A stretch of 64,000 bases of DNA, from the IMG/VR virus record IMGVR_UViG_3300021964_009400. One strand, 5' to 3'. Each line of letters begins with the position of its first letter. Within the stretch, counting starts at the first letter, position 1. Source of the stretch: a virus (Duplodnaviria; Caudoviricetes). Positions 23,602 to 62,814 of the stretch are shown here, piece after piece. The position numbers and the translations under genes are program-made. The notes under the pieces are model-generated. The model was not told where the DNA came from. It ran no database searches and saw only the letters and a list, made by a program, of their open reading frames with translations.

Positions 23602-23602
23602 T

Positions 23603-25250: not shown

Positions 25251-25261
25251 TAAATTTTTAT

Positions 25262-25270: not shown

Positions 25271-25300
25271 TATGTATTGAAAAACATAAATTAAAAAGTT

Positions 25301-25486: not shown

Positions 25487-25489
25487 TAT

Positions 25490-28784: not shown

Positions 28785-28808
28785 TATATATTAATACAAA
28801 GATATTCA

Positions 28809-30988: not shown

Positions 30989-30993
30989 TTTAA

Positions 30994-32418: not shown

Positions 32419-32427
32419 AAAAAAGTT

Positions 32428-34589: not shown

Positions 34590-35761
34590 ATTTTGTTTCT
34601 TTATTTGGAGAGGACGATAGACCAGATTGGGTTATAAGAGGTCCTCTAACTGATTATCTTGAAAATAATTACAAACATACAATTGGAATTGATTTCGATA
34701 ATAGTTTAAACAATATTATTGTATTAGAAACAGTAGAACATTTTAAAGGTTGTTTCCAAAATCTTCGAACCAAGTTTTCAGGCACATCATTAGTTGAAAT
34801 ATTAAAAAACAATGATATAAAAATAATATTTGGGTCAATTGCAGACCCTTCCAGTCGTATTGATAAAAACAAATTAATGAATCAAATCGAACTATTAAAT
34901 TTAACAGATAAAGTTTACTATTTAGATAGTGTTATAAATCATCAAGAAGATAAAAATACTTTTTGTTATCATCATTTTTTAGAAGAACCTGGTATTCATT
35001 ATGAAAACTTTGGAAACTATAATTTTTTTGAAGAAATTAATGATTTAGGTTATAAAAGTAAAGATATAGATGAAACTGAAATAGATACATTTAGAGAAAA
35101 AAAGTTTTTATCATTTAACAGAACCGTAGATAAAGATAATCGATTAAGTTTATATCACACTTATTTAGAAAACGATTTTTCAGATTCATATTTTAGTTTC
35201 TTAAATATGTCAAGTGATTATAATGATGATATGGACGGTTGTAATTTTTTTACAAGTACACCAAAATTGAGTTATAGTAGTTATAAAGATAAATTGCCAA
35301 TTGAACTTGATACAAAAGATATTGATGTAAATTTGTGTAATTTTAAAACAAGTAATACATTTAAAAAAAAATTATTTTTAAATTCTTGTATTAACATCGT
35401 AACAGAAACATCATTTAGCACTAATAGTATTTTTATATCAGAAAAAATTATAAAACCAATTTTATGTTTTCAACCCTTTTTAGTTTTAGGACCACAGTAC
35501 TATCTTAAAGAATTAAAAAAATTGGGTTACAAAACTTTCTCTGAATTTTGGGATGAAAGTTATGATGAAATAAAGAGTGGTGCACAAAGATATTTTGCAA
35601 TAGAAAAAATAATATTAGAATTAAATAATAAAACAATTGAAGAAATAAATGAACTTTATCAGAAAACTAAAAATATATGTATATATAATAGGAAAGTATT
35701 TGATAATTTTAGACAAAATTCAATTCCACAAATAATAAAACAAATAGAAAATGAAGGATAA
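34574..35761 (+). CDS. Putative glycosyltransferase (GT10-like, paralogue 3)
   Basis: FLSFNR; INIVTET..FISEKIIKPILCFQPF..LGYKTFSEFWDESYD. Confidence 0.5.
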   Translation: MGSILNFVSLFGEDDRPDWVIRGPLTDYLENNYKHTIGIDFDNSLNNIIVLETVEHFKGCFQNLRTKFSGTSLVEILKNNDIKIIFGSIADPSSRIDKNKLMNQIELLNLTDKVYYLDSVINHQEDKNTFCYHHFLEEPGIHYENFGNYNFFEEINDLGYKSKDIDETEIDTFREKKFLSFNRTVDKDNRLSLYHTYLENDFSDSYFSFLNMSSDYNDDMDGCNFFTSTPKLSYSSYKDKLPIELDTKDIDVNLCNFKTSNTFKKKLFLNSCINIVTETSFSTNSIFISEKIIKPILCFQPFLVLGPQYYLKELKKLGYKTFSEFWDESYDEIKSGAQRYFAIEKIILELNNKTIEEINELYQKTKNICIYNRKVFDNFRQNSIPQIIKQIENEG

Positions 35762-36716
35762 AAAGGTTTTGATAACAGGTGCCAATGGATTGGTTGGTAA
35801 CTATATGGTTCAAAAATGTATCGATAAAGGTGCATTTGTTACTGCGGTTGATATTAAACAACCAGACAATCAAATTCAAAAATATAAAGATGAAAACTAT
35901 CAATTCATCAAGGCAGATTTAAGAGAGTTCTCTTCTTGTAAAAGAGTTGTAGAAGGTCAAGATATCATATTTCATATTGCAGGTGTTAAAGGTTCTCCTA
36001 AGAGGGCTATGGAACAACCCGCTGATTACTTTGTACCGATGTTACAATTCAATACTAATATGATGGAGGCGGCTCGATTGGAAGATGTTGAATGGTATGT
36101 TTACACATCAACAGTTGGAGTTTATCAACCAGCTGAAGTATTTTACGAAGATGATGTATGGAAAACCTTCCCATCAGAAAAAGATAAGTATGCTGGATGG
36201 GCAAAGAGATTAGGTGAATTACAAGCTGAAGTTTATTCTGTATCATTCGATTGGAACAAAGCATCAGTTGTAAGACCAGCAAACATTTATGGTAGACACG
36301 ATAACTTCGGACCAGAATCAACAGTAATCGCATCACTTATCAAAAGATTATTTGGTGAAAAAGAACATCCACTAATTTGTTGGGGAGATGGTTCACCAAT
36401 TAGAGATTTTATTTACGCTGGTGATGTTGCTGATGGAATCATAAAAGCATATGAACAAAAATTAACACAACCAATCAACTTAGGTAGTGGTACTGGTGTT
36501 ACCATTAGAGAACTTGCTGAAACTCTTGTAGATATCTACGAAGAAATGTATGGAGTTAAAGTTGGTATCGAATGGGATAGTACAAAACCAAATGGAGATG
36601 CAAAAAGATTAATGAGCACAGAAAGAGCTGAATCTTTCGGAGTTATTCAACAGGTATCTCTTAGAGAAGGATTAAAAGAAACAATAGATTATTATTTAAA
36701 CGAATTTACAAAATGA
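35751..36716 (+). CDS. NAD-dependent epimerase/reductase (GDP-fucose-synthase-like)
   Basis: ITGANGLVG; YAGWAK; RPANIYG; WGDGSPIRDFIY. Confidence 0.85.
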   Translation: MKDKKVLITGANGLVGNYMVQKCIDKGAFVTAVDIKQPDNQIQKYKDENYQFIKADLREFSSCKRVVEGQDIIFHIAGVKGSPKRAMEQPADYFVPMLQFNTNMMEAARLEDVEWYVYTSTVGVYQPAEVFYEDDVWKTFPSEKDKYAGWAKRLGELQAEVYSVSFDWNKASVVRPANIYGRHDNFGPESTVIASLIKRLFGEKEHPLICWGDGSPIRDFIYAGDVADGIIKAYEQKLTQPINLGSGTGVTIRELAETLVDIYEEMYGVKVGIEWDSTKPNGDAKRLMSTERAESFGVIQQVSLREGLKETIDYYLNEFTK

Positions 36717-37705
36717 AAAAAACAGACAAAATTTTAGTTACAGGCGCAAGTGGATTTATAGGTTCACGATTAATTAAGATGTTATACGAATTAGGTTACA
36801 CTAACTTAAGAGCAACATCTTGGAGTAGAGATTTAAGAAACGATTTCGAAGGATGTGAAAATATAGAACATATCAAAGGTAATTTACAAGATGCAGATTT
36901 TTGTGAGATTGTATCAAAAGATTGTAATGTTGTAATTCATGCAGCTGCTAATACATCTAATGCATTAGATACACGATTTAATCCTTTACTTCATGTTACA
37001 CCAAATGTAGAGATGAATGTAAACCTTATGGAACAATCATGGAAACATAAAGTAAGAAAATTTATTTTTATATCTTCGAATACAACTTATCCTGATAAAG
37101 GAGATGTTCCTTGTACTGAAGATATGGAAGTACAAACATCTGATATCGTACCAGTTTACAAAGCAGTAGGTTGGATGAAAAGATATTGTGAAACTCTTTG
37201 TGATTTCTTTTCAAACCAAATTCATGACCCAATGCAATGTGTAATCATCAGACCTTCAAATGCATTCGGACCAAACGATAAGTATGATTTTGAAAAATGT
37301 CATGTAACTCCAGCTAATATCAGAAAAGTTGCAGATAACTTAAACCCAATACCAGTTTGGGGTGATGGTACTGAAGTAAGAGATGTTATTCATGTTGATG
37401 ATATGGTAAGTGGATTTATAACAGTTGCTGAAAAAGTTGATACATACGATATTTACAATGTATCTTATGGTGAAGGATATACTGTTATGGAAGTGCTTGA
37501 TAAAATTAAAGAAATCGAAGGAAACACAAACCCAGTCGAATTCGTAAACAACAAGGCACCAATGATACCAGTTAGATTATTAGATAATACAAAATTAAAA
37601 GCACTTGGTTGGAAACCTAAATATGATTTAGAAAGTGGTTTAAGAGATGCACTTTCTTGGTATAAAGAAAACAAAGACCAATTTAATCCTAATTCAAAAC
37701 CATAA
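36713..37705 (+). CDS. NAD-dependent epimerase/reductase (GDP-fucose-synthase-like)
   Basis: VTGASGFIG; VGWMK; RPSNAFGP; WGDGTEVRD. Confidence 0.85.
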   Translation: MKKTDKILVTGASGFIGSRLIKMLYELGYTNLRATSWSRDLRNDFEGCENIEHIKGNLQDADFCEIVSKDCNVVIHAAANTSNALDTRFNPLLHVTPNVEMNVNLMEQSWKHKVRKFIFISSNTTYPDKGDVPCTEDMEVQTSDIVPVYKAVGWMKRYCETLCDFFSNQIHDPMQCVIIRPSNAFGPNDKYDFEKCHVTPANIRKVADNLNPIPVWGDGTEVRDVIHVDDMVSGFITVAEKVDTYDIYNVSYGEGYTVMEVLDKIKEIEGNTNPVEFVNNKAPMIPVRLLDNTKLKALGWKPKYDLESGLRDALSWYKENKDQFNPNSKP

Positions 37706-38253
37706 TGGCAGAACCAAAGTTTACACCTTATTTAGATGCATTAACAGAGGCAATGAAACTTTGTATGGAAGATGATAAAACAATATTCATCGGACAACAG
37801 ATAGTTTATTATGGAAACCCAATGAGTAAAACTATTGAGGGATTGCCAAAAGAAAGAATGATAGAAACACCAGTAATGGAAGAAACCCAAATGGGAATGT
37901 CATTGGGTTTAGCAATGAGTGGATATAGTGTAGTAAGTTTTTATCCAAGATGGGATTTTGTAATTTGTGCAGGAAATCAACTCATAAATCATCTAGATAA
38001 AATTAATGTAATGTCTGATGGTGCATGGAATCCTAATATAATTATTAGAGTTGGTAAAGGTTCTGATACTCCATTAGACCCTGGTCATCAACATAAGGCA
38101 GATTATACAGAAGAATTTAAAACAATTTTAAAACATATAAATGTGATAAAACTTGATTCTCATGAAAAAATACTTCCTGCTTATAAAGATGCACTAAAAA
38201 AAGGTGGTATATGGTTGATGGTTGAATATCCTCAATTATATTATGAAAATTAA
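37705..38253 (+). CDS. Short ThDP-dependent E1 beta/transketolase pyrimidine-binding subunit
   Basis: IETPVMEETQMGMSLGLA; GNQLINHL; GHQH; 182 aa, lacks the C-terminal domain. Confidence 0.8.
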   Translation: MAEPKFTPYLDALTEAMKLCMEDDKTIFIGQQIVYYGNPMSKTIEGLPKERMIETPVMEETQMGMSLGLAMSGYSVVSFYPRWDFVICAGNQLINHLDKINVMSDGAWNPNIIIRVGKGSDTPLDPGHQHKADYTEEFKTILKHINVIKLDSHEKILPAYKDALKKGGIWLMVEYPQLYYEN

Positions 38254-39697
38254 TAGAGTATTTGATGTTATAGGTCCTAGAGGACCAGTTCCCAATGGAT
38301 TAAATTGGAATTATACCGATACTTTTTGGGATTATAATTTTTACATTTATCATAAACTTATAGATGCGTTTAATAAAAAATATACACAACTATCAGTTTA
38401 CGATTGTAATTTAAATCTACCAGGTGATAGTACAAAAACCTATCATATTAGTGATTTACATTTTGATGAATCAAAAAAATTAATCACAAATAATAATGAA
38501 AAATATTTCTATACCATACATCCATTTGGAAATGTTCATTTATCTACTGGTTTAGATATATCATATCATCAAGGAAAGCATAGTTTTGATTTTATATCAA
38601 AGAAAGCAAAAATATATTCAGAAGCAACAAACTTTTGGTTTATATATGATTATAGTAGTGAGGGAGATATTAATGAGTATATATTTGAATCACTACATGA
38701 ATCATGTAAGCGTACTAATATAAATCCTTCAAAAATTATTGTTATTACTGGTGCAGAAAATACATCTGATATTTATAAAAGTTTTTTAGAAAAAAATCCA
38801 CAAGATAATTTATTTTATACTGCATTTTATCCTTGGTCTCTTCTTGGAAAAGCGAAAGATACACAATCTATTTTGTTCGAAAGAAAAAGAATAAATTTTA
38901 ATGGTTTTAATAATGAAAATTCATTGATGTTAGATGATGAGTTTGATAAATTAACTCAAAGAGAATCTTATGCACTTTGTTTAAATAGAAGATTGGCACC
39001 ACATAGAATAATTTTAATTAGTTGGTTATTTGAAAACAATTTATTTGATAAAACAAAAACTTCTTATGATATAGAACTTTTACATAGAGATGATGCAGGA
39101 TTGGATTTAGTATCTGGTAGTGGTCACGATGGAGAAAGTTACTTATTAAATCAAGATACCAAGAATCAGATAATGAGTGGTTACAGAAAAATGATACAAA
39201 AAGAAAAAAATATAATTGATTTCAAAGATATTAAAAATGTGTGGGGATTTGCATTTGAAAAATCAGAAAATTACAAATCTACATATTTTTCAATTGTAAC
39301 AGAAACTTTGTTTTATGAGTATGGAAATTATTTATCTGAAAAAACATGGAAACCAATTGCACATTTGCATCCATTTGTATTAATTAGTAGACCAGGTATG
39401 TTGAAGTTTTTACATAGTTTAGGATTTAAAACATTTTCTGAATTTTGGGATGAAAGTTATGATACTATTGAATCAAATCCTAAAAGAATGGAAAAAATAC
39501 TTAAAGTATTAACAGATTTATTATCTAAAAGTAAAGATGAATGGGATGAGTTAAATAAAAAATTAAAACCAATACTTATTTATAATAGAAACTTACTTTT
39601 ATCGTTTCAAGAAAAAAAAGTAGGTAATGCTTATAAAAATAAATTATTTAATTTAATTGAAAATGAACCCAATCAAGAAAATTATTACTTACTTTAA
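38243..39697 (+). CDS. Putative glycosyltransferase (GT10-like, paralogue 4)
   Basis: LCLNRR..HR; YFSIVTET..YLSEKTWKPIAHLHPF..LGFKTFSEFWDESYD; ATG 38243 preferred over TTG 38222. Confidence 0.5.
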   Translation: MKINRVFDVIGPRGPVPNGLNWNYTDTFWDYNFYIYHKLIDAFNKKYTQLSVYDCNLNLPGDSTKTYHISDLHFDESKKLITNNNEKYFYTIHPFGNVHLSTGLDISYHQGKHSFDFISKKAKIYSEATNFWFIYDYSSEGDINEYIFESLHESCKRTNINPSKIIVITGAENTSDIYKSFLEKNPQDNLFYTAFYPWSLLGKAKDTQSILFERKRINFNGFNNENSLMLDDEFDKLTQRESYALCLNRRLAPHRIILISWLFENNLFDKTKTSYDIELLHRDDAGLDLVSGSGHDGESYLLNQDTKNQIMSGYRKMIQKEKNIIDFKDIKNVWGFAFEKSENYKSTYFSIVTETLFYEYGNYLSEKTWKPIAHLHPFVLISRPGMLKFLHSLGFKTFSEFWDESYDTIESNPKRMEKILKVLTDLLSKSKDEWDELNKKLKPILIYNRNLLLSFQEKKVGNAYKNKLFNLIENEPNQENYYLL

Positions 39698-46574: not shown

Positions 46575-48167
46575 ATGGCTAAAGCTTCTTTAAAGGATAT
46601 AATTAAACTTGAGTATCAGAAATGTGCTGGAGACCCAATCTACTTTATGAAAAAGTATTGTATGATTCAACATCCTGTGCGTGGTAAGATTCCTTTTCAC
46701 TTATATCAATTTCAAGAAAGAACTTTAGAAGAATTTACAGAACATCGTTATAACATTATCCTTAAATCTCGACAAACAGGTATCTCAACCTTAACTGCGG
46801 GATTTTCTCTTTGGAAAATGTTATTCAATCAAGATTTTAATGTATTAGTAATTGCAACTAAACAAGAAGTTGCTAAGAACCTTGTAACGAAGGTTCGTGT
46901 GATGAATCAATACTTACCATCGTGGTTAAAACAAACAACAGTAGAGGATAACAAGTTATCTCTGAGATACTCGAATGGTTCTCAGATAAAAGCAACATCA
47001 GCTGCTGGAGATGCTGGTCGTTCTGAAGCACTATCCTTATTAGTATTTGATGAGGCAGCATTCATTGATAAGATTGAAGATATATGGGTATCGGCACAAT
47101 CTACCTTATCTACTGGTGGTAACGCAATTATCCTTTCAACACCAAATGGTGTAGGAAACTTCTTTCACAAAACTTGGGTAGGTGCTGAAGAAGAAACAAA
47201 TACATTCAATACAATTAGATTACATTGGTCAGTACATCCAGAAAGAGACCAAAGTTGGAGAGATGAACAAGAGGTACTATTAGGACCAAAGGGAGCAGCA
47301 CAAGAATGTGATTGTGATTTTGTTTCTTCTGGTGATACTGTAATAGACCCACAACTCTTACAATTCTATAAAGAATCATTTGTACAAGAACCAATGGAGA
47401 AAACAGGTTTCGATGGAAACTTGTGGAAATGGGAATATCCAAACTATAATAAATCTTATATGGTAGTTGCCGATGTTGCTCGTGGAGATTCAACCGATTA
47501 TTCAGCATGTCATGTAATTGATATTGAAAATGCATCACAAGTAGCAGAATATAAAGGTAAATTAGATACAAAAGATTTTGGAAACTTTTTAGTTTCACTT
47601 TCAACTGATTATAATAATGCATTGTTAGTAGTTGAGAACGCAAACATTGGTTGGGCAGTAATACAACAAGTAATTGATAGAGGATATGGAAATCTTTTTT
47701 ATATGAGTAAGGATTTAAAGTATGTAGATGTAGAAAATCAATTAACAAACAAATACAGAGCACAAGATAGAGGATTAGTTGCAGGATTTAGTACAACATC
47801 TAAAACTCGACCTTTGATTATATCAAAGTTGGAACAATACATAAGAGAAAAATCTGTAACCATTCGTTCATCAAGAACCATAGATGAATTATTTACATTT
47901 ATATGGAGTGGGAATCGAGCAGAAGCAATGAGAGGATATAATGATGATTTAACAATGTCATTATCTATTGGATTGTGGGTTAGAGATACCGCATTGAGAT
48001 TAAGACAAGAAGGAATTGATTTAACAAAACAAGCATTGGGTGGTATTGGAGCACACCAATTAGATATTGCAGGTATGGGATTCGGTGGAAACACTCAGTT
48101 AGAAGAAAACCCATGGAAACAACGAGTAGGGGATAGAGATGAGGATTTAACTTGGTTAATTAAATAA
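46575..48167 (+). CDS. terL: Terminase large subunit (T4 gp17-like)
   Basis: KSRQTGIST Walker A; LLVFDEAAF Walker B; ILSTPNG; YMVVADVARG and NDDL nuclease motifs. Confidence 0.95.
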   Translation: MAKASLKDIIKLEYQKCAGDPIYFMKKYCMIQHPVRGKIPFHLYQFQERTLEEFTEHRYNIILKSRQTGISTLTAGFSLWKMLFNQDFNVLVIATKQEVAKNLVTKVRVMNQYLPSWLKQTTVEDNKLSLRYSNGSQIKATSAAGDAGRSEALSLLVFDEAAFIDKIEDIWVSAQSTLSTGGNAIILSTPNGVGNFFHKTWVGAEEETNTFNTIRLHWSVHPERDQSWRDEQEVLLGPKGAAQECDCDFVSSGDTVIDPQLLQFYKESFVQEPMEKTGFDGNLWKWEYPNYNKSYMVVADVARGDSTDYSACHVIDIENASQVAEYKGKLDTKDFGNFLVSLSTDYNNALLVVENANIGWAVIQQVIDRGYGNLFYMSKDLKYVDVENQLTNKYRAQDRGLVAGFSTTSKTRPLIISKLEQYIREKSVTIRSSRTIDELFTFIWSGNRAEAMRGYNDDLTMSLSIGLWVRDTALRLRQEGIDLTKQALGGIGAHQLDIAGMGFGGNTQLEENPWKQRVGDRDEDLTWLIK

Positions 48168-48171
48168 ATCT

Positions 48172-48180
48172 ATATTTATA
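48172..48180 (+). promoter_or_regulatory. Putative late promoter motif ATATTTATA
   Basis: 18 nt upstream of ATG 48199; followed by AAGGAG RBS. Confidence 0.6.
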
Positions 48181-48198
48181 GTATAAGGAGAAAATATT

Positions 48199-48579
48199 AT
48201 GATTTCAATGAAAAAATTACTTAATGAAAACGAATCTTATTGTAACGAATACTTTGTAGAAAACTATCATGATATAAAAGAATTTTGTGAATTCATGAAA
48301 TCGTATAAATCTGATATCAACGAGGCAGAATATCAAGGAAGAAAAGTAAAACTTGGTAAACCAATGCAGGGTGATGTTAAAAAGTTTAAAGTATATGTTA
48401 AAAATCCCCAAGGTAATGTAGTAAAAGTAAACTTTGGTCATAAAGGAAAAGGTGGAGAGAAAACAATGTCAATCAAAAAGAATAATCCTGAAAGGAGAAA
48501 ATCTTTTAGAGCAAGACATAACTGTGATAACCCAGGTCCAAGACACAAAGCAAGATACTGGTCTTGTAGAAAATGGTAA
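48199..48579 (+). CDS. Putative head-internal protein (acidic leader, basic C-terminal domain)
   Basis: N-terminus MISMKKLLNE; DINE junction; basic domain KFKVYVKNP..RRKSFRARHNC..RYWSC. Confidence 0.55.
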   Translation: MISMKKLLNENESYCNEYFVENYHDIKEFCEFMKSYKSDINEAEYQGRKVKLGKPMQGDVKKFKVYVKNPQGNVVKVNFGHKGKGGEKTMSIKKNNPERRKSFRARHNCDNPGPRHKARYWSCRKW

Positions 48580-48619
48580 AAACAAAACAATAAAGGTTAT
48601 AATTTAAATTAGAAATAAA

Positions 48620-50356
48620 ATGGCAGATACTTCATTTTTTGGTAGATTAACAAAACTATTCAGAGCCCAAGCGGTGGTTACCATCGATAAAAAGGGTAGA
48701 AGAAAAGTAGTTGATACTGATGAAAGACAACAAACGAATTTATCATCTTTAAGAGATAGATATACAAAGATTCAGAAATCTTTCTTTGAACAAGCAGGTG
48801 GTGCACAATCAATGGCATACCAACAAGTTCGTAGAGAAGTTTTTCGTGATTACGATGCAATGGATAACGACCCGATATTAGCATCAGCATTAGATATATA
48901 CGCAGATGAATCAACACTAAAAAACGAATTTGGTGATACTCTAGGAATCGTATCAGATAATGAAAAGATTCAAGAAATATTAAGAAACTTATTTTATGAT
49001 ATCCTTAATGTTGAATTCAACTTATGGCCATGGGTAAGAAATATGTGTAAGTATGGAGATTTCTTCTTAGGTTTAGAAATAGCTGAAGGTAAAGGTATTG
49101 TGAATATTACACCTCACTCTGTTTACAATACAGAAAGATTAGAAAGAACAGACCCAACAAATCCAAATTCAGTAAAGTTTAAAATTACTGAGGACCCGAA
49201 TGGTAAAGAAGAATACGAAAACTTTGAAATTGCTCACTTCAGATTGTTAGCAGATACAAACTGGTTACCTTATGGTAAATCTATGATTGAGAATGGTAGA
49301 AGATTGTGGAAACAATTATCTCTAATGGAAGATGCTATGTTAATCCATAGAATCATGAGAGCACCAGAAAAAAGAGTATTCAAAGTGGATATAGGAAATA
49401 TCCCTCCAACAGAGGTTGATAACTATATGCAGAGAATCATCAATAAAATGAAGAAAGTTCCTTTCGTTGATAGAAATACTGGTGATTACAACTTAAAGTA
49501 CAATATGCAAAATCTAACTGAAGATTTTTACTTACCAGTTAGAGGTGGTGATAGTGGTACAAACATTGAAAACCTTGCAGGTTTAGAATATGCAACTATC
49601 GAAGATATTGATTATTTAAAGAACAAATTATTTGCAGCTCTTAAAATTCCAAAAGCATATTTAGGATACGAAGAACAAGTAAATGGTAAAGCAACACTTG
49701 CAGCAGAAGATGTTAGATTTGCAAGAACAATCGAAAGAATTCAAAGAACAGTAATTTCAGAATTAACTAAAATTGCAATTGTACATTTATACTCACAAGG
49801 TATTACAGATTCAGAAATGACAAACTTTGAATTACAATTAGTAAATCCATCATTTATTTACGAACAAGAAAAAATAAACCTTTGGTCAGAAAAAGTTAGA
49901 TTGGCACAAGATGTGATTGGATTGAATATGTTATCTAAAGATTGGGTATATTCCAATATATTTAAAGTTTCTGATAATGAAAAGGATGATGAACAAACTA
50001 AAATTATTGAAGATATCAAAGATAGATATAGATATAGAATGATTGAAGATGAGGGTAATGACCCTGCATTAGAAGATGAAGAACCAGATGATATCGAAGA
50101 ATCTTTAGAAAAATTAAAAGCAGAAATTAAAGATAAAGGTGGTAGACCAAGAGAAGGAAATACATATGGTAAAGATAAGCATCCTTATGGTAGAGACCCA
50201 CTTGGTGATAAAGAAAGAAAATCTGCAAGAAAAAATACAACTTCCGAAGAAAAAGCAATACAATATGTAAGTGGAATTGCTGCAAAAAGAAAGTATTTAC
50301 ATGAAATGAAAGATATGTTAGATGAGGAAAATATCCTCAAAGATACAGAAAATTAA
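48620..50356 (+). CDS. Portal protein (T4 gp20-like)
   Basis: LMEDAMLIHRIMRAPEKRVFKVDIGNIP; EDFYLPVRGG; LFAALKIP. Confidence 0.95.
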   Translation: MADTSFFGRLTKLFRAQAVVTIDKKGRRKVVDTDERQQTNLSSLRDRYTKIQKSFFEQAGGAQSMAYQQVRREVFRDYDAMDNDPILASALDIYADESTLKNEFGDTLGIVSDNEKIQEILRNLFYDILNVEFNLWPWVRNMCKYGDFFLGLEIAEGKGIVNITPHSVYNTERLERTDPTNPNSVKFKITEDPNGKEEYENFEIAHFRLLADTNWLPYGKSMIENGRRLWKQLSLMEDAMLIHRIMRAPEKRVFKVDIGNIPPTEVDNYMQRIINKMKKVPFVDRNTGDYNLKYNMQNLTEDFYLPVRGGDSGTNIENLAGLEYATIEDIDYLKNKLFAALKIPKAYLGYEEQVNGKATLAAEDVRFARTIERIQRTVISELTKIAIVHLYSQGITDSEMTNFELQLVNPSFIYEQEKINLWSEKVRLAQDVIGLNMLSKDWVYSNIFKVSDNEKDDEQTKIIEDIKDRYRYRMIEDEGNDPALEDEEPDDIEESLEKLKAEIKDKGGRPREGNTYGKDKHPYGRDPLGDKERKSARKNTTSEEKAIQYVSGIAAKRKYLHEMKDMLDEENILKDTEN

Positions 50357-50423: not shown

Positions 50424-51296
50424 ATGAGAAAAATAAAACATTCAAAATTTAAAAATACTGGTTTTCTTTTTGAACTCCTTACAAGGCAAGTTACCCTTGA
50501 AATAATCAATGGTAGTGAAGAAAAAGCTAAAGGAATTATTAAAGAATTCTATGGTAAAGGTACTGAAATGTCCAAAGAATTGAGATTATTCAACCTTTTA
50601 ATAAATGAAAAATATAATACAGAATCAAAAGCTGAAAAGTTTATTGATGCTATTTTAGAAGCCCATACAAAAATAGATTATAAAAAAATTCAACGAGAAA
50701 AATATAATCTTGTAAAAGCTATCAAGGAAAACTTCGAAATTAACAATTTCTTATCTTCCCCGGTAACAAACTACAAAATTTTAGCTTCAATCCATAAGTT
50801 GTTTGAAGGTAAAAAGAATGATATCCTTGATATTAAAGATGTATTTAATTCAAAACTAACTCTTGTAGAGCATATCTCATCAAATTCCCCATCTACATTA
50901 AAAGAAAAAGAAGATAAGTTAGTAGAAGAATACAGAAAACAAGAGAAAGATTTAAGATTATTGACATACAAAATTCTTGTTGAAACTTTTAACAAAAAAT
51001 ATACAACTCTAGATGAATCACAAAAAGGTTTATTAAGAGAATATATTAATAATGTTAATAACACTTCAAAGTTCAACGAGTATTTCGAATCAGAATTAAT
51101 CAAAACTATTACTGAATTACATACAATGTATAAAGGTATGAAGGATAAGATTACAAAAATCAAGTTGAAAGAAACTATTAATGTTTTAAAAAAGCAAAAA
51201 ATTGGTAAAAAGATTACCGATGAACAAGTTTCAGCTTTGATGATGTCTTATGAATTGATTAAGGAGATAAAAAATGTCAATGGAAAAAAATCTTAA
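50424..51296 (+). CDS. Hypothetical head-module protein (helical)
   Basis: 290-aa ORF directly after the portal; no recognised motif. Confidence 0.6.
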   Translation: MRKIKHSKFKNTGFLFELLTRQVTLEIINGSEEKAKGIIKEFYGKGTEMSKELRLFNLLINEKYNTESKAEKFIDAILEAHTKIDYKKIQREKYNLVKAIKENFEINNFLSSPVTNYKILASIHKLFEGKKNDILDIKDVFNSKLTLVEHISSNSPSTLKEKEDKLVEEYRKQEKDLRLLTYKILVETFNKKYTTLDESQKGLLREYINNVNNTSKFNEYFESELIKTITELHTMYKGMKDKITKIKLKETINVLKKQKIGKKITDEQVSALMMSYELIKEIKNVNGKKS

Positions 51297-52206
51297 AGAA
51301 ATCTTAGATGAAATTCTTGATGAAGTTCAAAAAGAATTAGATGAAGCCACTACAACAGGTAATGTAGATGGTTATCAAACTCCTTACGCATTCTCCAAAG
51401 GAAACAAACACAAAAAAAGAAAAAAGAAAATAGCAACACAACTTGGTTATTCAGTTGTGGGTGGTGATATTGATAATATCAATGAAGCAGCAATAACTTA
51501 TGGTATTGAATATAAATCATCTAAAAAAGATAGAAAATTCAAAAAAGCATCTTTAACAAAAACAACACACAATCCTAATATAGATAAAATGATGATAAAG
51601 GCTATTTCTAAAGATGCCAAATCATTAGCAAAACAAGATGGGTGGGTTGATTATAGAATAACCAAAGATGGTGTACCTGTAAAAGAATCAGTAAACGAGG
51701 GAAAATTCAAACCATCACAAGTTCGTTCAGCAATCTCAAGAGTTAAAAAACAACTAATGAGAAAGTGGAAACAAAAAGGTGGATATGAAAACTTTGGACA
51801 AAAAGAACTTTCTCAAATGAAAGATAAGTTTGATTACAATCCATATGGTTCATCAGATGAAAGACAGATTTCAAAGATGTTAGATGGGTTTGATAATTGG
51901 GCTATGAACTATGATGGTAATATGAGAGAAGATATTAACGAAGCTAAAGTAAAGAGACCAGTAAATCGTTGGTTAGAATTAAAAAACGATGAATCAATGC
52001 ATCCTCATAAGAAGATGGCAATGGGTCTAAAAGAATTAAAGTATCAATTAAGAGAAGTTGAGAAGTTTTTCAATTGGTATAATAAAATCAAAACGATTAA
52101 TGAGTTGGATTCTGATAAGTATTGGAAAAGAACAAATAAACATATTTATACTATAAAAGAGAGATTAATCAAAATAGCAAAAACAATACAGGAGATTGAA
52201 AAATGA
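51274..52206 (+). CDS. Putative modular head-internal protein
   Basis: AAGGAG 7 nt upstream; NLKEILDEILDE leader; segments delimited by LDE, INE, ESVNE and DINE. Confidence 0.6.
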   Translation: MSMEKNLKEILDEILDEVQKELDEATTTGNVDGYQTPYAFSKGNKHKKRKKKIATQLGYSVVGGDIDNINEAAITYGIEYKSSKKDRKFKKASLTKTTHNPNIDKMMIKAISKDAKSLAKQDGWVDYRITKDGVPVKESVNEGKFKPSQVRSAISRVKKQLMRKWKQKGGYENFGQKELSQMKDKFDYNPYGSSDERQISKMLDGFDNWAMNYDGNMREDINEAKVKRPVNRWLELKNDESMHPHKKMAMGLKELKYQLREVEKFFNWYNKIKTINELDSDKYWKRTNKHIYTIKERLIKIAKTIQEIEK

Positions 52207-52533: not shown

Positions 52534-52710
52534 ATGACCAAAAGAGAATTGTATGATATCATCAATGAAGAAATCGTTAATGTTAAAAAAGGAACTATTA
52601 ACGAAGAACTCACCGAATCTGATAAGGATATAATCCGAAAAATTATCAGACAAGAAGTATCGGCAATCTTTTTTGATTTATTTAAGAAAAGAAAAACTTG
52701 GGGAGCATAA
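52534..52710 (+). CDS. 58-aa putative prohead core protein (not in ORF track)
   Basis: MTKRELYDIINEEIVNVKKGTINEELTESDKDIIRKIIRQEVSAIFFDLFKKRKTWGA*; TAATG-coupled to the protease. Confidence 0.6.
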   Translation: MTKRELYDIINEEIVNVKKGTINEELTESDKDIIRKIIRQEVSAIFFDLFKKRKTWGA

Positions 52711-53307: not shown

Positions 53308-53493
53308 ATGGGATTTAATGTACAGGACTTTATGTCCAAAAATAAGTTTAAACTTGGAACAGTTGAAAGAGAAGTTGGTTCTAAAACTGCAAAGAGTTAT
53401 AACGATATAAGAAAAACTAATTATGAAGTTAAGTTAACCGAAGATGGTAAACTTGATTTATACACACATAAAAAGGAGAAAAAAGAATTATGA
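53308..53493 (+). CDS. Small hypothetical protein (61 aa)
   Basis: Tightly packed ORF after the protease. Confidence 0.55.
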   Translation: MGFNVQDFMSKNKFKLGTVEREVGSKTAKSYNDIRKTNYEVKLTEDGKLDLYTHKKEKKEL

Positions 53494-55185: not shown

Positions 55186-55476
55186 AAGGAGAGAACAATG
55201 AAACTAAAAGATATACTTAACGAAAGCAAAAATAATATTAGTGAGGCAAAAAAAGTTGACCCAAGAATAGCTGGTGATATTTTTGCAAGATATCTTATAG
55301 GAGATAGAACTGATGCAATAAGACAATTAGATAAATTAAAAAAAATTGCAAGTTTTGGAGTAATGGAGACGCCAGGAACAAAAGAATATAACCAACAATT
55401 CGCAGAACTCTCAGATAAAATTACAAAAGTAATTAGAGGAGTAATGTAATATTAAAGGAGAGAACAATGAAACTAA
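55185..55476 (+). repeat. 23-nt direct repeat covering RBS and first codons of adjacent genes
   Basis: AAAGGAGAGAACAATGAAACTAA at 55185-55207 and 55454-55476. Confidence 0.85.
55198..55449 (+). CDS. Putative head-internal protein (83 aa)
   Basis: Leader MKLKDILNE..NISE; AAGGAG RBS. Confidence 0.6.
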   Translation: MKLKDILNESKNNISEAKKVDPRIAGDIFARYLIGDRTDAIRQLDKLKKIASFGVMETPGTKEYNQQFAELSDKITKVIRGVM

Positions 55477-56225
55477 CCCAACTATTAAAAGAAAATGAAG
55501 AAAGACCTCTATCTAATGAGGTTAAAAGACATTTTCTTGAAATTGTTTCAACTTACAACAAGTATCAAGAATCAATGGATAGAAAATCAGATATTACTCA
55601 AGTAGCAGAAACCCTTGGTGGTATTACTGAAGCTGCTAGAACACTTGCAATCAAAGAAGCTGGTGATTGGTTCGATAAACATACTGTAAAGAGAAACATG
55701 AGTGAATTGGATAAGTTGGGTAAACAATTCGATAAAGTTGCTCTTGAGGCTCGTGCACTTGACCAAAGAATGGCAGGATTATACGAGGATATGGGACACA
55801 TCCTATCAAGATACTACAAGTTCGGTGAGATTACTGAAGATGAAATGAAAAACAGATTAGGTATCAACGAATCTAAAAAAGATTGTGGATGTGGATGTGG
55901 TGGAACAACAGTAGGTGGATGCAACGAATCAGTAAACAAAGAAACAATTACAGAACAATCTGTTGTAGTTCACAATAGAACACAAAATGGAAACATAGTT
56001 ACAGTATTAAAAGAATCTGATTTAAACGAAGAAGAAATGAAACTTTATGAGTTTGGTAAAAAAGTAACTCGGTTAATGGAAAAAAGTTGCCCAAATGACC
56101 CTGGTAAATGGGCAGCATCTAAAGCAGCAGCAAAAAAGAAGTTTGATGTATATCCTTCTGCATACGCTAATGGATGGGCTGCAAAAAACTACAAGGGTAA
56201 AGGTGGAACTTGGAAAAACTGTTAA
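55467..56225 (+). CDS. Putative modular head-internal protein
   Basis: Leader MKLTQLLKE; INE then CGCGCGG; ESVN; LME then basic module YPSAYANGW..YKGKGGTW. Confidence 0.6.
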   Translation: MKLTQLLKENEERPLSNEVKRHFLEIVSTYNKYQESMDRKSDITQVAETLGGITEAARTLAIKEAGDWFDKHTVKRNMSELDKLGKQFDKVALEARALDQRMAGLYEDMGHILSRYYKFGEITEDEMKNRLGINESKKDCGCGCGGTTVGGCNESVNKETITEQSVVVHNRTQNGNIVTVLKESDLNEEEMKLYEFGKKVTRLMEKSCPNDPGKWAASKAAAKKKFDVYPSAYANGWAAKNYKGKGGTWKNC

Positions 56226-56234
56226 GGAGAAATT

Positions 56235-57493: not shown

Positions 57494-58885
57494 ATGAGAC
57501 TCAGAGACTTATTACCAGAACAAGAAACATTCACTGCTACTAACAAAAAGAGTGGAGAAACTGCGGTATTCAAATCTAAAGATTCAAGAGATGCAGCAAT
57601 TAAAGCAGGAACTCACGAACCTATTGAAAAGGGAGGTGATGAAAAATCTGATAAACAGAAATCACCTGGTAAAGTAAGTGGGAAAGATATGTTTAAACAT
57701 GCTTCTGATATCAAAAAAGATAAAGAAGAAACTCCAAAAGATAATCAAAAAGATTGGGATGGGAAAACACTTCCAAAAACTCCAGCTTTTAGTGGAGAAG
57801 AAAAGGTCAATTATTTGAATGATATAACTACTAGCATGGATATGTACAAAAGTGGTAAAGTGAATAGTAGTTGGGAAGCAAGAGATAAATATTTTGATGA
57901 ATTGTATAATAATACTATTTGGTCGTTGGAGGAGTTCATATATCAAACAGGATATAAACAAGGTGATTTTGACATAGATTCACTTCAAAAAAAAGTTGAT
58001 GAATTATATAAAGATGTAATGCGTGGTGCAGAACATACTGATGAAACAATGGGTAGAAAAATCTCACCTTCTCAGAACCAAGAAATTCAAAATGAAATAG
58101 GTAGAATAGCTAAAGAAATTTCTCAAAAAATTGACAACCCAACAGAACATACTCGAAAAGAGTGGGATAGAAGTATGCCAAAAAACTCTGATATGTTTGG
58201 TGGGGATGATAATCAAATAGATTTAGACCAAAAAGAGTTCAACTCAGGAAAAATTTGGTATCGTCAATCTGCTGAAGATATTAATAAAGAAGAAGGTTAT
58301 GATGGTTATATAGGAACTACTCAGAGGGTATATAATCAAATGAGAGATTGGCTTCGTTCCAATGCAAAACTCCATAGAGAAGAAGTATCCGATATGTTGC
58401 AAGGCCTTAGAAACAAAAGTTTGAAAATGCAAAAAGACGCAAAAAGATTTGATAAACTTTCAACCTTTCATAAGAGAGAAGTTGAAGATGAAATAGGTCA
58501 TTTAGCTAATTTAATTGGAAAAAAGTACAAACAACCAAAACCAAAACCTGAACCAAAACCTGAACCAAAATCAGAACCAAAATCAGAGCCAAAATCAGAA
58601 CCAAGGCCTGAACCAAGACCACAACCAAGGACTGAACCATCACCAGAAGAAAAGGCTAAAAAAGAATTAAGTGGTGCAACTGCTTTAGGATTTAGTGATA
58701 TAGAAAAATTAGGTTCTAAAGCTGCTAGTGATATTGATATGGCAGTTAGAAGAGACCCTAATTATACTCGTGGTAGTAGACCTGGTGATGATGATAGATT
58801 AAGAGCTAAAAAAGCAAAAGAATTAGGATATATAGATGAAGTTAAATCAATGAAACTAATAGATTTATTACCTAATGTAAAATAA
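57494..58885 (+). CDS. Putative modular head-internal protein
   Basis: Leader MRLRDLLPE; FTAT..RDAAIKAGTHE module; PEPK repeats; C-terminal IDE-VKSMKLIDLLP. Confidence 0.6.
   Translation: MRLRDLLPEQETFTATNKKSGETAVFKSKDSRDAAIKAGTHEPIEKGGDEKSDKQKSPGKVSGKDMFKHASDIKKDKEETPKDNQKDWDGKTLPKTPAFSGEEKVNYLNDITTSMDMYKSGKVNSSWEARDKYFDELYNNTIWSLEEFIYQTGYKQGDFDIDSLQKKVDELYKDVMRGAEHTDETMGRKISPSQNQEIQNEIGRIAKEISQKIDNPTEHTRKEWDRSMPKNSDMFGGDDNQIDLDQKEFNSGKIWYRQSAEDINKEEGYDGYIGTTQRVYNQMRDWLRSNAKLHREEVSDMLQGLRNKSLKMQKDAKRFDKLSTFHKREVEDEIGHLANLIGKKYKQPKPKPEPKPEPKSEPKSEPKSEPRPEPRPQPRTEPSPEEKAKKELSGATALGFSDIEKLGSKAASDIDMAVRRDPNYTRGSRPGDDDRLRAKKAKELGYIDEVKSMKLIDLLPNVK
58535..58639 (+). repeat. 12-nt tandem coding repeat (PEPK/SEPK/PEPR)
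   Basis: ccaaaacctgaa / ccaaaatcagaa units in frame. Confidence 0.85.
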
Positions 58886-59253
58886 TGCAACTCCAAGAAC
58901 TATGTAAGGAAATTATAGAAGAAAACAGATGTATCCATTGTGGAAACATTGTTAACGAAGATTTGCGTAATTGGTTCAAATCAAAGTGGGTTAACATTGG
59001 TAAGAAAGATAAAAGTGGAAAACACCCACCATGTGGAACAAGTGGTGATAAGAGTGGATATGCTAAATGTGTTCCAGCTTCAAAAGCTAAATCTATGAGT
59101 AAAAAAGAAAAAGAATCTGCAACTCGTAGAAAGAGGACAGCACAAAACAAGGCAAATCGTGGTGGTAAGGCATCGAGAGGTCAAGGAAAGAAACCTATAA
59201 ATGTTTCTACCCATACTGGTGGAAAAAAGAGTGGGACCGGAAAAGGTTCATAA
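58885..59253 (+). CDS. Putative head-internal basic protein
   Basis: Leader MQLQELCKEIIEE; CIHC; VNE then DLRNWFKSKWVNIG..CG..KCVP basic domain. Confidence 0.55.
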   Translation: MQLQELCKEIIEENRCIHCGNIVNEDLRNWFKSKWVNIGKKDKSGKHPPCGTSGDKSGYAKCVPASKAKSMSKKEKESATRRKRTAQNKANRGGKASRGQGKKPINVSTHTGGKKSGTGKGS

Positions 59254-59294: not shown

Positions 59295-59618
59295 ATGAGT
59301 AAACACCCAAAATTAGTATCTGTACAAGTTAAGCACAAAGATATTAATAAAGCACTAAAAATTTTAAAAAGAAGAATCAACGATTCAGGTCATCTACAAG
59401 AGTTAAGAGATAGAAAGTATTTTGAAAAACCATCTGTTGTTAAAAGAAAAGCAAATCAACAAGCTAGAAGAGAACAAGAAAGAGAAACTATTTTAGAAAA
59501 AATAGAAAATGGTAATACAACAGTCAGATTAAAAACTCGTAAAAAAAGAAAAATAAAATCAAAAAATAATGATTCTAAAAAGAAAGAAGATAAAAATTCT
59601 TCAAAATTAATTTCATAA
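59295..59618 (+). CDS. rpsU: Phage-encoded ribosomal protein bS21 with basic C-terminal extension
   Basis: INKALKILKRR...G.LQELRDRKYFEKPSVVKR..Q.ARR is the bS21 pattern; 107 aa. Confidence 0.85.
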   Translation: MSKHPKLVSVQVKHKDINKALKILKRRINDSGHLQELRDRKYFEKPSVVKRKANQQARREQERETILEKIENGNTTVRLKTRKKRKIKSKNNDSKKKEDKNSSKLIS

Positions 59619-59644: not shown

Positions 59645-59791
59645 ATATTTATTAGTAATAATCCACAGGTGTGGATTCATTTTATGGTTTATGAATACCC
59701 ACGAGTTCTTATGTGAGGTGACCAAACCTAAAATTAATTCTTATTGAAAATCCCTTAATATTTTCACGATAACAAACGAAAGGTTTAAAAA
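59645..59791 (+). promoter_or_regulatory. Variant late promoter (ATATTTATT) and ~140-nt structured 5' leader of the scaffold-capsid operon
   Basis: Longest non-coding gap in the head module; hairpins AATCCAC-aggt-GTGGATT (59660-59677) and TGAAAAT-8-ATTTTCA (59745-59766). Confidence 0.45.
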
Positions 59792-61018: not shown

Positions 61019-61048
61019 TTATTAACAAAATTTTAAGGAGAGATAAAA

Positions 61049-62781: not shown

Positions 62782-62814
62782 AGAGTATAATTGATTAATT
62801 AAGGAGAAAAATAT

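What the first reader, a model, noticed from the sequence alone, without database searches (positions are those of the whole stretch)
59295..59618. Phage bS21 plus Shine-Dalgarno sites concentrated on late genes: possible ribosome reprogramming
Seen: AAGGAG/GGAG 5-11 nt before late genes (5745, 7149, 48199, 51274, 52203, 53490, 55198, 55467, 56235, 61049, 62815), but not before primase or SbcCD and not evident before the glycan genes. Known: Bacteroidota ribosomes sequester the anti-SD partly via bS21, host mRNAs largely lack SD, and phage bS21 genes near capsid genes have been reported. From my memory of the Flavobacterium sequence (KPSVVKRAQIQKAAY), the anti-SD-contacting Tyr aligns with Arg here (KPSVVKRKANQQARR), and there is a ~40-aa basic tail. 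Inference: phage bS21 frees the anti-SD to favour late mRNAs.
Basis: partly seen in the sequence, partly recalled or inferred. Interest (0 to 1): 0.72.

Follow-up and report, generated by a model that had tools for sequence, protein, structure and literature searches.

The report
Phage bS21 lacking anti-SD-locking tyrosine
A marine T4-like phage that probably infects Flavobacteria-type bacteria, whose ribosomes ignore Shine-Dalgarno sites, encodes its own ribosomal protein bS21 without the tyrosine that hides the ribosome's reading sequence and puts such sites only on virion genes, which suggests but does not prove that it re-tunes host ribosomes.

Summary
ORF 59295-59618 is a real bS21 gene in the head module. 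SD sites precede 21 of 46 virion-module genes and 0 of 29 other genes.

On a gapless alignment with a Flavobacterium bS21, host Tyr54 is Arg59 here. A 38-residue, very basic tail follows.

The host is probably Bacteroidota, judged from a host-type promoter before primase, 18 such promoters in a complete relative, and the labels of genome bins that hold relatives.

Published F. johnsoniae Y54A and C-terminal truncation mutants gain SD-dependent translation, so the mechanism is plausible. A cultured Flavobacterium phage without bS21 has no SD sites.

Three results weaken it:
- A complete close relative with the same Arg-type bS21 has almost no SD sites.
- Some SD-rich relatives keep the tyrosine.
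- Other relatives use sigma-70-type promoters, so different hosts confound the family-wide correlation, which rests on only about three independent contrasts.

This scan has already raised the same idea on other genomes and on other windows of this genome. I found no paper that makes the link. I rate it a new variant of a known kind and a testable hypothesis.

The parts
59295..59618 (+). Phage-encoded ribosomal protein bS21, 107 aa. Its own leader (aaataaaagaga ATG) has no usable SD.
   Evidence: Pfam PF01165 E 2e-13, full-length match. TIGR00030 E 6.8e-12. 109 homologues, all checked ones in T4-like head modules. Leader.
59469..59471 (+). Codon for Arg59, the residue that aligns with Tyr54 of Bacteroidota bS21. 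Tyr54 stacks on A1534 and helps sequester the anti-SD.
   Evidence: Gapless BLASTP against a Flavobacterium-bin bS21 (L161): QQARREQ against QKAAYIQ. Alignment A3. R59 is nearly invariant in the subclade. Role of Tyr54: PMC7797042.
59502..59615 (+). C-terminal extension (residues 70-107) beyond the end of host-type bS21. It is very basic and follows a conserved ILEKIENG...RL...KKRKK block.
   Evidence: Alignments A3 and A4. The region after KPS is 60 aa, net +13, pI 10.7, against 22 aa, net +2, pI 9.5 in the Flavobacterium bin.
59660..59677 (+). Terminator-like hairpin followed by a T-rich tail. bS21 appears to close a head-module transcription unit ahead of the scaffold-MCP unit.
   Evidence: Consensus scan. 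RNA-library contigs begin at about 59792 (contigs only, so weak).
61035..61040 (+). AAGGAG 8 nt before the major capsid protein start (61049).
   Evidence: Conserved at the orthologous gene in L006, G014, L018, L002 and L003; absent in G001, L020, G015 and L025.
62801..62806 (+). AAGGAG 8 nt before the gp13-like neck gene (62815).
56224..56229 (+). AAGGAG 5 nt before head-module gene 56235.
55455..55460 (+). AAGGAG 6 nt before head-module gene 55467.
55186..55191 (+). AAGGAG 6 nt before head-module gene 55198.
53473..53478 (+). AAGGAG 11 nt before head-module gene 53490.
52702..52705 (+). GGAG 4 nt before the ATG at 52710 of the prohead protease.
   Evidence: Protease identified by PHROG 207, E 9e-49. 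Site conserved in relatives.
52190..52194 (+). AGGAG 8 nt before gene 52203.
51261..51266 (+). AAGGAG 7 nt before gene 51274.
48185..48190 (+). AAGGAG 8 nt before gene 48199.
7136..7140 (+). (G)AGGAG 8 nt before the 67-aa ORF at 7149.
5730..5734 (+). AGGAG 10 nt before tail-region gene 5745.
8548..8579 (+). Bacteroidota-type promoter (TTTG, 20 nt, TAtaTTTG, with a TTTTCG extension) 20 nt before primase. This is the evidence on the host in the window itself.
   Evidence: The same extended form precedes the primase orthologue and 17 other intergenic sites in G001. A second copy lies before the first gene of the 84-kb record.
21367..39697 (+). Glycan-biosynthesis block of 19 genes, none with an SD.
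46575..50356 (+). TerL (46575-48167) and portal (48620-50356) are late packaging genes without SD, although the small gene between them (48199) has one.
58885..59253 (+). Basic Cys-containing DUF5872-like protein with a capsid-targeting-like MxLxEL leader. It is the constant upstream neighbour of bS21 in this subclade.

Best explanation
The ORF is a real, late-module, phage-encoded ribosomal protein bS21 in an uncultured marine 'Far-T4' myophage whose host is most likely a Bacteroidota (Flavobacteria-type) bacterium.

Proposed mechanism (inferred, not shown):
1. The gene is translated from an SD-less, A-rich leader by ordinary host ribosomes.
2. The protein binds the 30S platform through its conserved N-terminal bS21 fold, in place of host bS21. 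Host bS21 is a late-assembling protein, and F. johnsoniae ribosomes that lack it remain active (PMC7797042, PMC9976891).
3. The phage protein has Arg instead of the signature Tyr54, and a long hyper-basic C-terminus instead of the short weakly basic Bacteroidota one. It therefore does not hold the 3' tail of 16S rRNA in the bS21/bS18/bS6 pocket.
4. The freed anti-SD can pair with the AAGGAG sites that the phage places 5-11 nt before its abundant virion-protein genes. Those messages gain a several-fold advantage late in infection, while SD-less enzyme genes are unaffected.

Shown here: the identity of the gene, the residue change and the tail, the placement and class restriction of SD sites, and their conservation at orthologous genes in the nearest lineages.

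Inferred: the host phylum, incorporation into host ribosomes, release of the anti-SD, and any effect on translation.
For: Gene identity.

SD sites:
- 21 of 46 virion-module genes have one, against 0 of 29 others (Fisher p = 3.6e-6).
- 12 AAGGAG copies are correctly placed, against 0.44 expected.
- SD sites are kept at the same orthologous genes in WIN, L006, L002, L003 and partly G014 and L018, although the leaders around them have diverged.

Residue and tail:
- R59 aligns with host Y54 without gaps and is nearly invariant in the subclade.
- The C-terminal region carries +13 net charge, against +2 in the host.
- bS21 is the only anti-SD-pocket protein encoded. No bS18 or bS6 was found.

Host:
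- The Bacteroidota-type promoter before primase is orthologous to one of 18 intergenic copies in syntenic G001, with none on the other strand.
- 13-15 of 35 bins holding relatives are labelled Bacteroidota. One is a Flavobacterium bin whose contig has 89% MCP identity and the same bS21 type.
- SD-less leaders are A-rich, with A at 65% at position -3.

Comparators:
- Flavobacterium phage immuto (complete genome, MCP 51.5% identical) has no bS21 and no SD sites.
- Mel-JY01 is an independent lineage that also has Bacteroidota-type promoters. It has a head-module bS21 with Lys at position 54, and GGAG sites concentrated on virion genes: 12 of 40 against 13 of 194, p = 1.3e-4.
- 27 of 28 SD-rich head modules of known status carry bS21.

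Published experiments: Y54A and C-terminally truncated bS21 ribosomes of F. johnsoniae translate strong-SD messages 3-5 fold better in vitro and 1.7-4 fold better in vivo, with little change on SD-less ones (PMC9976891; PMC10798248).
Against: - G001 is complete at 252 kb, syntenic, 76% identical in MCP, and has an Arg-type bS21 behind a late-type promoter. Its SD sites are at background level: 13 of 264 against 4.9%.
- L025 (Arg type) and LR756508 (bS21 in the same position) also have SD-poor head modules.
- SD-rich head modules occur with bS21 that keeps Tyr54 (L058 11/24, L084, L063, L088) or has Leu. Loss of Tyr is therefore neither necessary nor sufficient across the family.
- Hosts differ within the family. 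G013 and G015 use sigma-70-like TTGAC-N17-TAnnnT early promoters and no Bacteroidota motif. The raw association (Mann-Whitney p = 5e-8) is partly an effect of host or clade. Only 3 starred independent pairs exist, and the sign test cannot reach significance.
- Close relatives (88-89% MCP identity: L014, L152) have AAGGAAA instead of AAGGAG before the MCP gene, so the sites change quickly.
- The host is not proven. One cultured relative is deposited with a cyanobacterial host.
- The bS18 and bS6 contacts to the 3' tail would remain in place.
- There are no expression or binding data for this protein.
Confidence: 0.4

Rival explanations
1. The phage bS21 is a general ribosome supplement or take-over factor. 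It keeps 30S subunits complete after host shut-off, or biases them through its N-terminal helix or tail, with no causal tie to the SD sites. On this view the SD sites tune output of abundant virion proteins through the pool of ribosomes that naturally lack bS21. Such ribosomes read SD sites in Flavobacteria.
For: - G001, L025 and LR756508 carry bS21 without SD-led genes.
- Tyr-retaining phage bS21 coexists with SD-rich modules.
- Chen et al. found that all 61 of their phage bS21 keep an aromatic residue, and argued that the anti-SD stays blocked (PMC9723584).
- Ribosomes lacking bS21 already translate SD messages better (PMC9976891).
- bS21 is widespread in phages of SD-using hosts such as Pelagibacter, Methylophilales and Pseudomonas.
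Against: - It does not explain why 27 of 28 SD-rich head modules carry bS21, or why immuto, which lacks bS21, has no SD sites.
- It does not explain why this subclade fixed Arg at the one position whose mutation is known to free the anti-SD.
Confidence: 0.25
2. The host is not SD-blind. It is either not Bacteroidota or an atypical lineage. The SD sites are then ordinary ribosome-binding sites on highly expressed genes, and bS21 is an ordinary auxiliary gene, as in pelagiphages.
For: - Hosts clearly vary in this phage family, with sigma-70-type promoters in G013 and G015.
- G013 has SD sites genome-wide, 74 of 248 genes.
- Mel-JY01 is deposited as a Microcystis phage.
- Bin labels are noisy and include Pelagibacter, Rhodobacterales and even an archaeon.
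- Only two Bacteroidota-type promoters are visible in the 84-kb record.
Against: - The primase promoter is orthologous to a set of 18 Bacteroidota-consensus promoters in syntenic G001.
- None of the 29 non-virion genes has an SD, unlike the genome-wide use in G013.
- Bacteroidota is the commonest bin label, 13 of 35 against roughly a tenth of species by my recollection.
- The nearest binned relative sits in a Flavobacterium bin.
Confidence: 0.17
3. The SD sites are decaying relics, or were imported with structural modules from relatives that infect SD-using hosts. In the present host they have little or no function.
For: - SD state flips between very close relatives: AAGGAG against AAGGAAA at 87-93% MCP identity.
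- Several lineages of the same clade have none.
- The family spans hosts with different promoter types.
Against: - More than 20 sites keep the canonical core at 4-11 nt spacing.
- They persist at the same orthologous genes down to 70% MCP identity, while the flanking leader bases diverge.
- In the 84-kb record they are restricted to the virion modules; the gene products themselves were not identified beyond a few families.
Confidence: 0.1
4. The GGAG motifs serve another purpose, for example as RNA-processing sites (T4 RegB cuts at GGAG) or as binding sites for a phage translational regulator.
For: This rests only on general knowledge of T4 RegB and RegA. No tool result supports it.
Against: - The motifs extend to AAGGAG(G/A), the full complement of the 16S tail, at classic spacing.
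- No RegB-like gene was noticed among the proteins scanned, though the record is only about 41% of the genome.
Confidence: 0.03

Closest known systems
Phage-encoded bS21 of freshwater Bacteroidetes myophages (Chen et al. 2022, ISME Commun, PMC9723584)
   Same: A bS21 gene embedded among TerL, portal, prohead protease and MCP genes of large phages. Probable Bacteroidota hosts. Proposed to replace host bS21 late in infection.
   Different: - Their gene lies on the reverse strand; this one is co-oriented with its neighbours.
- All 61 of their proteins keep Tyr or another aromatic at position 54, and they argue the anti-SD stays blocked. This one has Arg and a 38-residue hyper-basic tail.
- They report no SD partition among phage genes.
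F. johnsoniae bS21 mutants Y54A and C-terminal truncation, and rpsU autoregulation (McNutt et al. 2023, PMC9976891; Naeem et al. 2024, PMC10798248; Jha et al. 2021, PMC7797042)
   Same: The same residue and region are altered. The laboratory mutants free the anti-SD and raise translation of strong-SD messages 2-5 fold. This is the effect proposed for the phage protein.
   Different: - Those are engineered host alleles; this is a natural viral paralogue.
- Host rpsU carries an extended SD (seen here in a Flavobacterium bin), whereas the phage bS21 gene has none.
- The phage protein adds a long basic tail instead of losing its C-terminus.
bS21 of Pelagibacter phage HTVC008M and other marine phages (Mizuno et al. 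2019, PMC6375957)
   Same: A phage-borne bS21. The HTVC008M protein enters E. coli ribosomes in vivo (as cited in PMC9976891), so incorporation of a viral bS21 has a precedent.
   Different: - Those hosts read SD sites normally.
- This bS21 is only 34-38% identical to the Pelagibacter phage Mosig and Methylophilales phage Melnitz bS21, and no pelagiphage was among the 25 best capsid matches.
bS21 paralogues of Francisella tularensis (PMC9578407; PMC13374519)
   Same: Alternative bS21 proteins in one ribosome pool change which messages are translated. This is a precedent for mRNA selectivity set by a bS21 variant.
   Different: A cellular system with chromosomal paralogues. The selectivity is not known to act through release of a sequestered anti-SD.

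Membership tests
Ribosomal protein bS21 (Pfam PF01165 / TIGR00030) | Profile match above the curated cut-off over the whole domain | tested here: met
   50.3 bits against 27, profile positions 1-54 of 55. 45 bits against 28.95.
Ribosomal protein bS21 (Pfam PF01165 / TIGR00030) | Conserved KPS/T motif and a basic helix after it | tested here: met
   K45-P46-S47. K45 and P46 are nearly invariant across 26 phage sequences.
Ribosomal protein bS21 (Pfam PF01165 / TIGR00030) | Assembles into the 30S subunit | not testable with these tools
   Needs ribosome purification and mass spectrometry or cryo-EM.
Bacteroidota-type, anti-SD-sequestering bS21 | Signature Tyr (aromatic) at position 54 | tested here: not met
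   Arg59 aligns with Tyr54 without gaps.
Bacteroidota-type, anti-SD-sequestering bS21 | Short, weakly basic C-terminal domain | tested here: not met
   60 aa, net +13, pI 10.7, against 22 aa, net +2, pI 9.5.
Bacteroidota-type, anti-SD-sequestering bS21 | Extended SD in its own leader (Flavobacteriales rpsU autoregulation) | tested here: not met
   The phage leader is aaataaaagaga ATG. The host-bin rpsU leader has gagaggaggtg.
Chen et al. 2022 bS21-encoding phage clades | bS21 located among TerL, portal, protease and MCP genes | tested here: met
Chen et al. 2022 bS21-encoding phage clades | Gene on the reverse strand relative to the structural genes | tested here: not met
   It is on the same strand as all its neighbours.
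Chen et al. 2022 bS21-encoding phage clades | Aromatic residue at position 54 | tested here: not met
   PMC9723584.
Chen et al. 2022 bS21-encoding phage clades | Bacteroidota host | tested here: inconclusive
   Promoter type and bin labels point that way. There is no spacer or culture evidence.
Functional Shine-Dalgarno sites | Complementary to the CCUCC core of the 16S tail, 4-12 nt before the start, and above chance | tested here: met
Functional Shine-Dalgarno sites | Pairing with the anti-SD raises initiation in the host | not testable with these tools
   Needs reporters, toeprinting or ribosome profiling.

The most novel reading that the evidence does not exclude
A late-expressed viral bS21 that lacks Tyr54 and carries a hyper-basic tail acts as a specificity switch. 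It displaces host bS21 and unlocks the sequestered anti-SD of Bacteroidota ribosomes. This creates a translation channel private to the phage, in which only SD-led virion messages gain. It would be the first natural case of a virus re-enabling a start-site recognition mode that its host has silenced.
Probability: 0.33. Interest if true: 0.85.

Novelty: new variant of a known kind. Interest (0 to 1): 0.62.

Why it matters
Why so many aquatic phages carry bS21 has been an open question since 2019. For Bacteroidota phages, the only published proposal is that the viral protein mimics the host one and keeps the anti-SD blocked.

This phage lineage gives a concrete and cheap experiment with a clear yes-or-no read-out. 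Put this natural Arg-type, long-tailed bS21 into the existing F. johnsoniae reporter and in-vitro systems, and test whether SD-led messages gain.

If the answer is yes, it would show that ribosome specialisation by a single exchangeable protein is used by viruses in nature. It would also explain SD sites in phages of SD-blind hosts, and it would give a tool for orthogonal expression in Bacteroidota.

If the answer is no, the SD partition still needs an explanation.

Tried and rejected
- **Metatranscriptome contigs.** Contigs from four salt-marsh runs cover the scaffold and MCP genes (59792-62700), some pieces without any difference, but hardly touch bS21. Contigs cannot show absence or level, so this says nothing about bS21 expression.
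- **PHROGs.** Scans named few of the SD-led genes. Gene classes were therefore assigned by module position.
- **tRNA scans.** They found none in the window or in G001, so there is no host clue from tRNAs.
- **bS21 in bacterial genomes.** 'relatives' is not available for virus records.
- **Promoters in immuto.** The Bacteroidota promoter motif was not found in 100 kb of immuto. Its absence therefore does not exclude a Bacteroidota host.
- **Window-wide promoter count.** The count of that motif in the window is not above chance (10 against 6.0). Only the position and extended form of the primase copy carry weight.
- **Intergenic RNA.** The 170-nt spacer after bS21 is not unusually structured (z = -0.39).
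- **Phylogenetic correction.** It left too few independent pairs for a test.
- **Upstream neighbour as partner.** I considered the DUF5872-like neighbour as a ribosome-acting partner of bS21, because the two genes moved together in G001 and one orthologue carries an IF2_N-like domain. Its N-terminus looks like the capsid-targeting leader of the other head proteins, so I make no binding claim and ran no complex prediction.
- **Mel-JY01.** No paper on it is held in the library.

Full report
**What is there.** The window is the last 64 kb of an 84,048-bp IMG/VR virus record (30% G+C, about 41% complete). Nearly all genes lie on the plus strand. ORF 59295-59618 encodes a 107-residue protein that matches Pfam Ribosomal_S21 over the whole model (E 2e-13) and TIGR00030.

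It lies in a T4-type head module. TerL is at 46575, portal at 48620, prohead protease at 52710, an acidic scaffold-like gene at 59792, the gp23-type major capsid protein (MCP) at 61049 and a gp13-like gene at 62815. A terminator-like hairpin follows the gene at 59660-59677.

A database search found 109 homologues. All those whose context I inspected sit in the same place in marine or estuarine T4-like contigs.

**The Shine-Dalgarno (SD) pattern.**
- In the 84-kb record, 17 of 75 called starts have a strong duplex with the 16S tail (dG <= -7), against 2.8% of background positions.
- 12 of 44 plus-strand AAGGAG copies sit 5-11 nt before a start, where 0.44 are expected.
- By module, 21 of 46 genes in the tail/baseplate and head modules have a GGAG or GAGG core at 3-12 nt. 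None of the 29 genes elsewhere does. Those 29 are the glycan block (19), primase and SbcCD (3) and others (7). Fisher p = 3.6e-6.

'Late genes' is too broad a description. A family-wide late-type promoter, TATTTATA, has 15 of its 25 copies in the 2.4% of the record that is intergenic. It also precedes the SD-less glycan genes, the giant fibre-like gene and the polyprotein. TerL and portal also lack SD. The SD-led set is a subset of virion proteins. The bS21 gene itself has no usable SD. SD-less leaders are A-rich.

**The protein.** I took host-type bS21 sequences from Bacteroidota-labelled metagenome bins that also hold relatives of this phage. The one from a Flavobacterium bin is 64 residues long, has the KPS...AAY signature, and sits behind the extended SD (gagaggaggtg) described for Flavobacteriales rpsU.
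- BLASTP aligns it to the phage protein without gaps, at 42% identity. Host Tyr54 falls on phage Arg59 (multiple alignment).
- Arg59 is nearly invariant in the subclade.
- The phage protein runs 38 residues past the host C-terminus. A conserved ILEKIENG...RL...KKRKK block precedes this tail.
- The region after KPS has net charge +13 and pI 10.7, against +2 and pI 9.5 in the host.
- No phage bS18 or bS6 was found.

**Host.** MCP relatives include Flavobacterium phage immuto (51.5%), Rhodothermus phage RM378, 'Microcystis' phage Mel-JY01 (54%) and a huge uncultured phage.

G001 is the complete 252,603-bp relative behind locus L019 (MCP 76% identical, largely syntenic). It has 18 plus-strand copies of the Bacteroidota consensus TTTG-N18-21-TAnnTTTG ending in its 5% of intergenic DNA, and none on the other strand. 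All share the form TTTGG...TTTTCGTATATTTG.

The window has the same extended motif 20 nt before primase, at 8548-8579. G001 has one before its primase orthologue. A second copy lies before the first gene of the record.

A scan of species-representative genomes with an MCP alignment found 39 contigs in 35 bins. Of these, 13 are labelled Bacteroidota, or 15 if Ignavibacteria are counted. No other phylum has more than five. A Flavobacterium bin holds the closest contig, with 89% identity over the MCP N-terminus, and that contig carries the same bS21 type. Bin labels are noisy.

I put the chance of a Bacteroidota host at about 0.8.

**Relatives.**
- *Immuto.* It is complete, has no bS21 and no SD sites: 2 of 60 starts, below background. 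Its MCP leader is purely A/C-rich.
- *Raw association.* Among 80 IMG/VR loci, those with a head-module bS21 have a median 25% of genes with a strong SD, against 0% for the others (Mann-Whitney p = 5e-8). With a GGAG criterion, 27 of 28 SD-rich loci of known status carry bS21.
- *After phylogenetic correction.* On an MCP tree the traits are clade-structured. Only 3 well-supported independent pairs exist. SD state never moves the opposite way, but no test is possible.
- *bS21 is not sufficient.* G001 has an Arg-type bS21 behind a late-type promoter. It has moved together with its upstream neighbour to another place. Its SD frequency equals background, at 13 of 264. L025 and LR756508 are also SD-poor.
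- *Loss of Tyr is not necessary.* Position 54 is R, L, K, A, V or Y in different clades. Tyr-type carriers such as L058 (11/24) are SD-rich.
- *Hosts differ.* G013 is complete at 216 kb, and G015 falls inside this phage's own 10-member clade. Both use sigma-70-like TTGAC(A/T)-N17-TAnnnT early promoters and no Bacteroidota motif. G013 has SD sites genome-wide (74/248). G015 has a Tyr-type bS21 and almost none. Much of the family-wide correlation may therefore reflect the host.
- *Phages with a Bacteroidota-type promoter or a known Bacteroidota host.* The picture fits the hypothesis, but n = 4. This phage and Mel-JY01 both have a non-aromatic head-module bS21 and virion-restricted SD sites (Mel-JY01: 12/40 against 13/194, p = 1.3e-4). 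G001 has a relocated bS21 and no SD sites. Immuto has neither.
- *This phage's own clade.* SD sites persist at the same orthologous genes down to 70% MCP identity (WIN, L006, L002, L003; more weakly G014 and L018). They are absent in G001, L020, G015 and L025. Very close relatives can differ by the single G that makes AAGGAG.

**Mechanistic plausibility from the literature.**
- Tyr54 of bS21 stacks on A1534 where the 16S tail turns into the bS18/bS6 pocket. Bacteroidota bS21 C-termini are unusually non-basic (PMC7797042).
- F. johnsoniae strains with bS21 Y54A or a C-terminal truncation make 1.7-4 fold more protein from strong-SD reporters in vivo. Their ribosomes make 3-5 fold more in vitro, with little change on SD-less templates (PMC9976891). 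They also raise SD-dependent prfB frameshifting (PMC10798248).
- Chen et al. found an aromatic residue at position 54 in all 61 of their phage bS21, and concluded that those proteins keep the anti-SD blocked (PMC9723584).
- Two full-text searches found no paper linking phage bS21 to SD use.

**Reading.** The best-supported mechanism is that this bS21 replaces host bS21 late in infection, fails to lock the anti-SD, and so favours SD-led virion messages. I give this 0.4. The rivals, with my estimates:
- General supplementation or take-over, with SD sites read by ribosomes that naturally lack bS21 (0.25).
- A host that reads SD sites anyway (0.17).
- Relic or imported SD sites (0.1).
- Another role for GGAG (0.03).

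The version that depends specifically on the tyrosine is weaker than the general link between a phage bS21 and SD-led virion genes.

**Prior notes.** This scan had already raised the same idea on several other genomes and on two other windows of this genome. I treated those notes as leads. My tests agree with the pattern.

**Limits.** Gene calls and starts come from a simple ORF rule. SD thresholds are arbitrary but were applied equally to all genomes. Most related records are fragments. Host assignment is indirect.

Noticed in passing
window 58885-59253; L094 1133-1468; L006 9590-9955; L002 5621-5962: A basic, Cys-containing DUF5872-like protein always sits 3-39 nt upstream of bS21 in this subclade. 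It moved together with bS21 in G001 and is never seen without it in the loci examined. The database holds 696 homologues. The G014 orthologue (P0194) carries an extra N-terminal DUF5661/IF2_N-like domain (28.1 bits against a cut-off of 25.3). Its own N-terminus looks like the capsid-targeting leader of the neighbouring head proteins.
   Followed up: partly
L036, L041, L046, L052, L054, L057, L062, L067, L070, L071, L073, L078 (bS21 genes): In the Leu-type clade, the phage bS21 gene itself starts with TTG or GTG 4-5 nt after a GAGGT/GGAGGT/GGGGGA motif. This recalls the SD-led rpsU of Flavobacteriales. The Arg-type genes start with ATG and have no usable SD.
   Followed up: no
G013 (L172-L182) and G015 (L195-L201): Two relatives, one inside this phage's own clade, use families of sigma-70-like early promoters (TTGACTcGTATgGTCC...TATgAT, and cTTGACATTA...TACATTATAA) instead of the Bacteroidota motif. 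This points to host shifts across phyla within one capsid lineage.
   Followed up: partly
L108, L112-L121 (Microcystis phage Mel-JY01, PP395634.1): The record names a cyanobacterial host. The genome nevertheless has four intergenic Bacteroidota-type promoters with the same TCGTAnnTTTG extension as G001. The true host may be a Bacteroidota companion of the culture.
   Followed up: partly
G001 57061, 107361, 246938, 247443, and their orthologues in the 84-kb record (window 62815; three lie upstream of the window): Four orthologous genes keep strong SD sites (up to AAAGGAGG) even in G001, which is otherwise SD-free.
   Followed up: no
window, 15 intergenic copies, e.g. 5719, 14015, 23604, 39795, 48173, 62774: TATTTATA (usually ATATTTATA) is enriched 8-25 fold in intergenic DNA of all five related genomes examined. 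It is probably the family's late promoter. It drives both SD-led and SD-less genes.
   Followed up: partly
window 59792-61018 and 57494-58885: The scaffold-like protein is extremely acidic. In RNA-library contigs it varies by GAA-codon insertions and deletions. The neighbouring 463-aa protein has a (K/E/R)P(E/S)P repeat tract.
   Followed up: no
L123, L140, L151 (bin 'Flavobacteriales bacterium NAT55'): One metagenome bin holds three different Far-T4 phage contigs: two with bS21 and SD sites, and one with neither.
   Followed up: no
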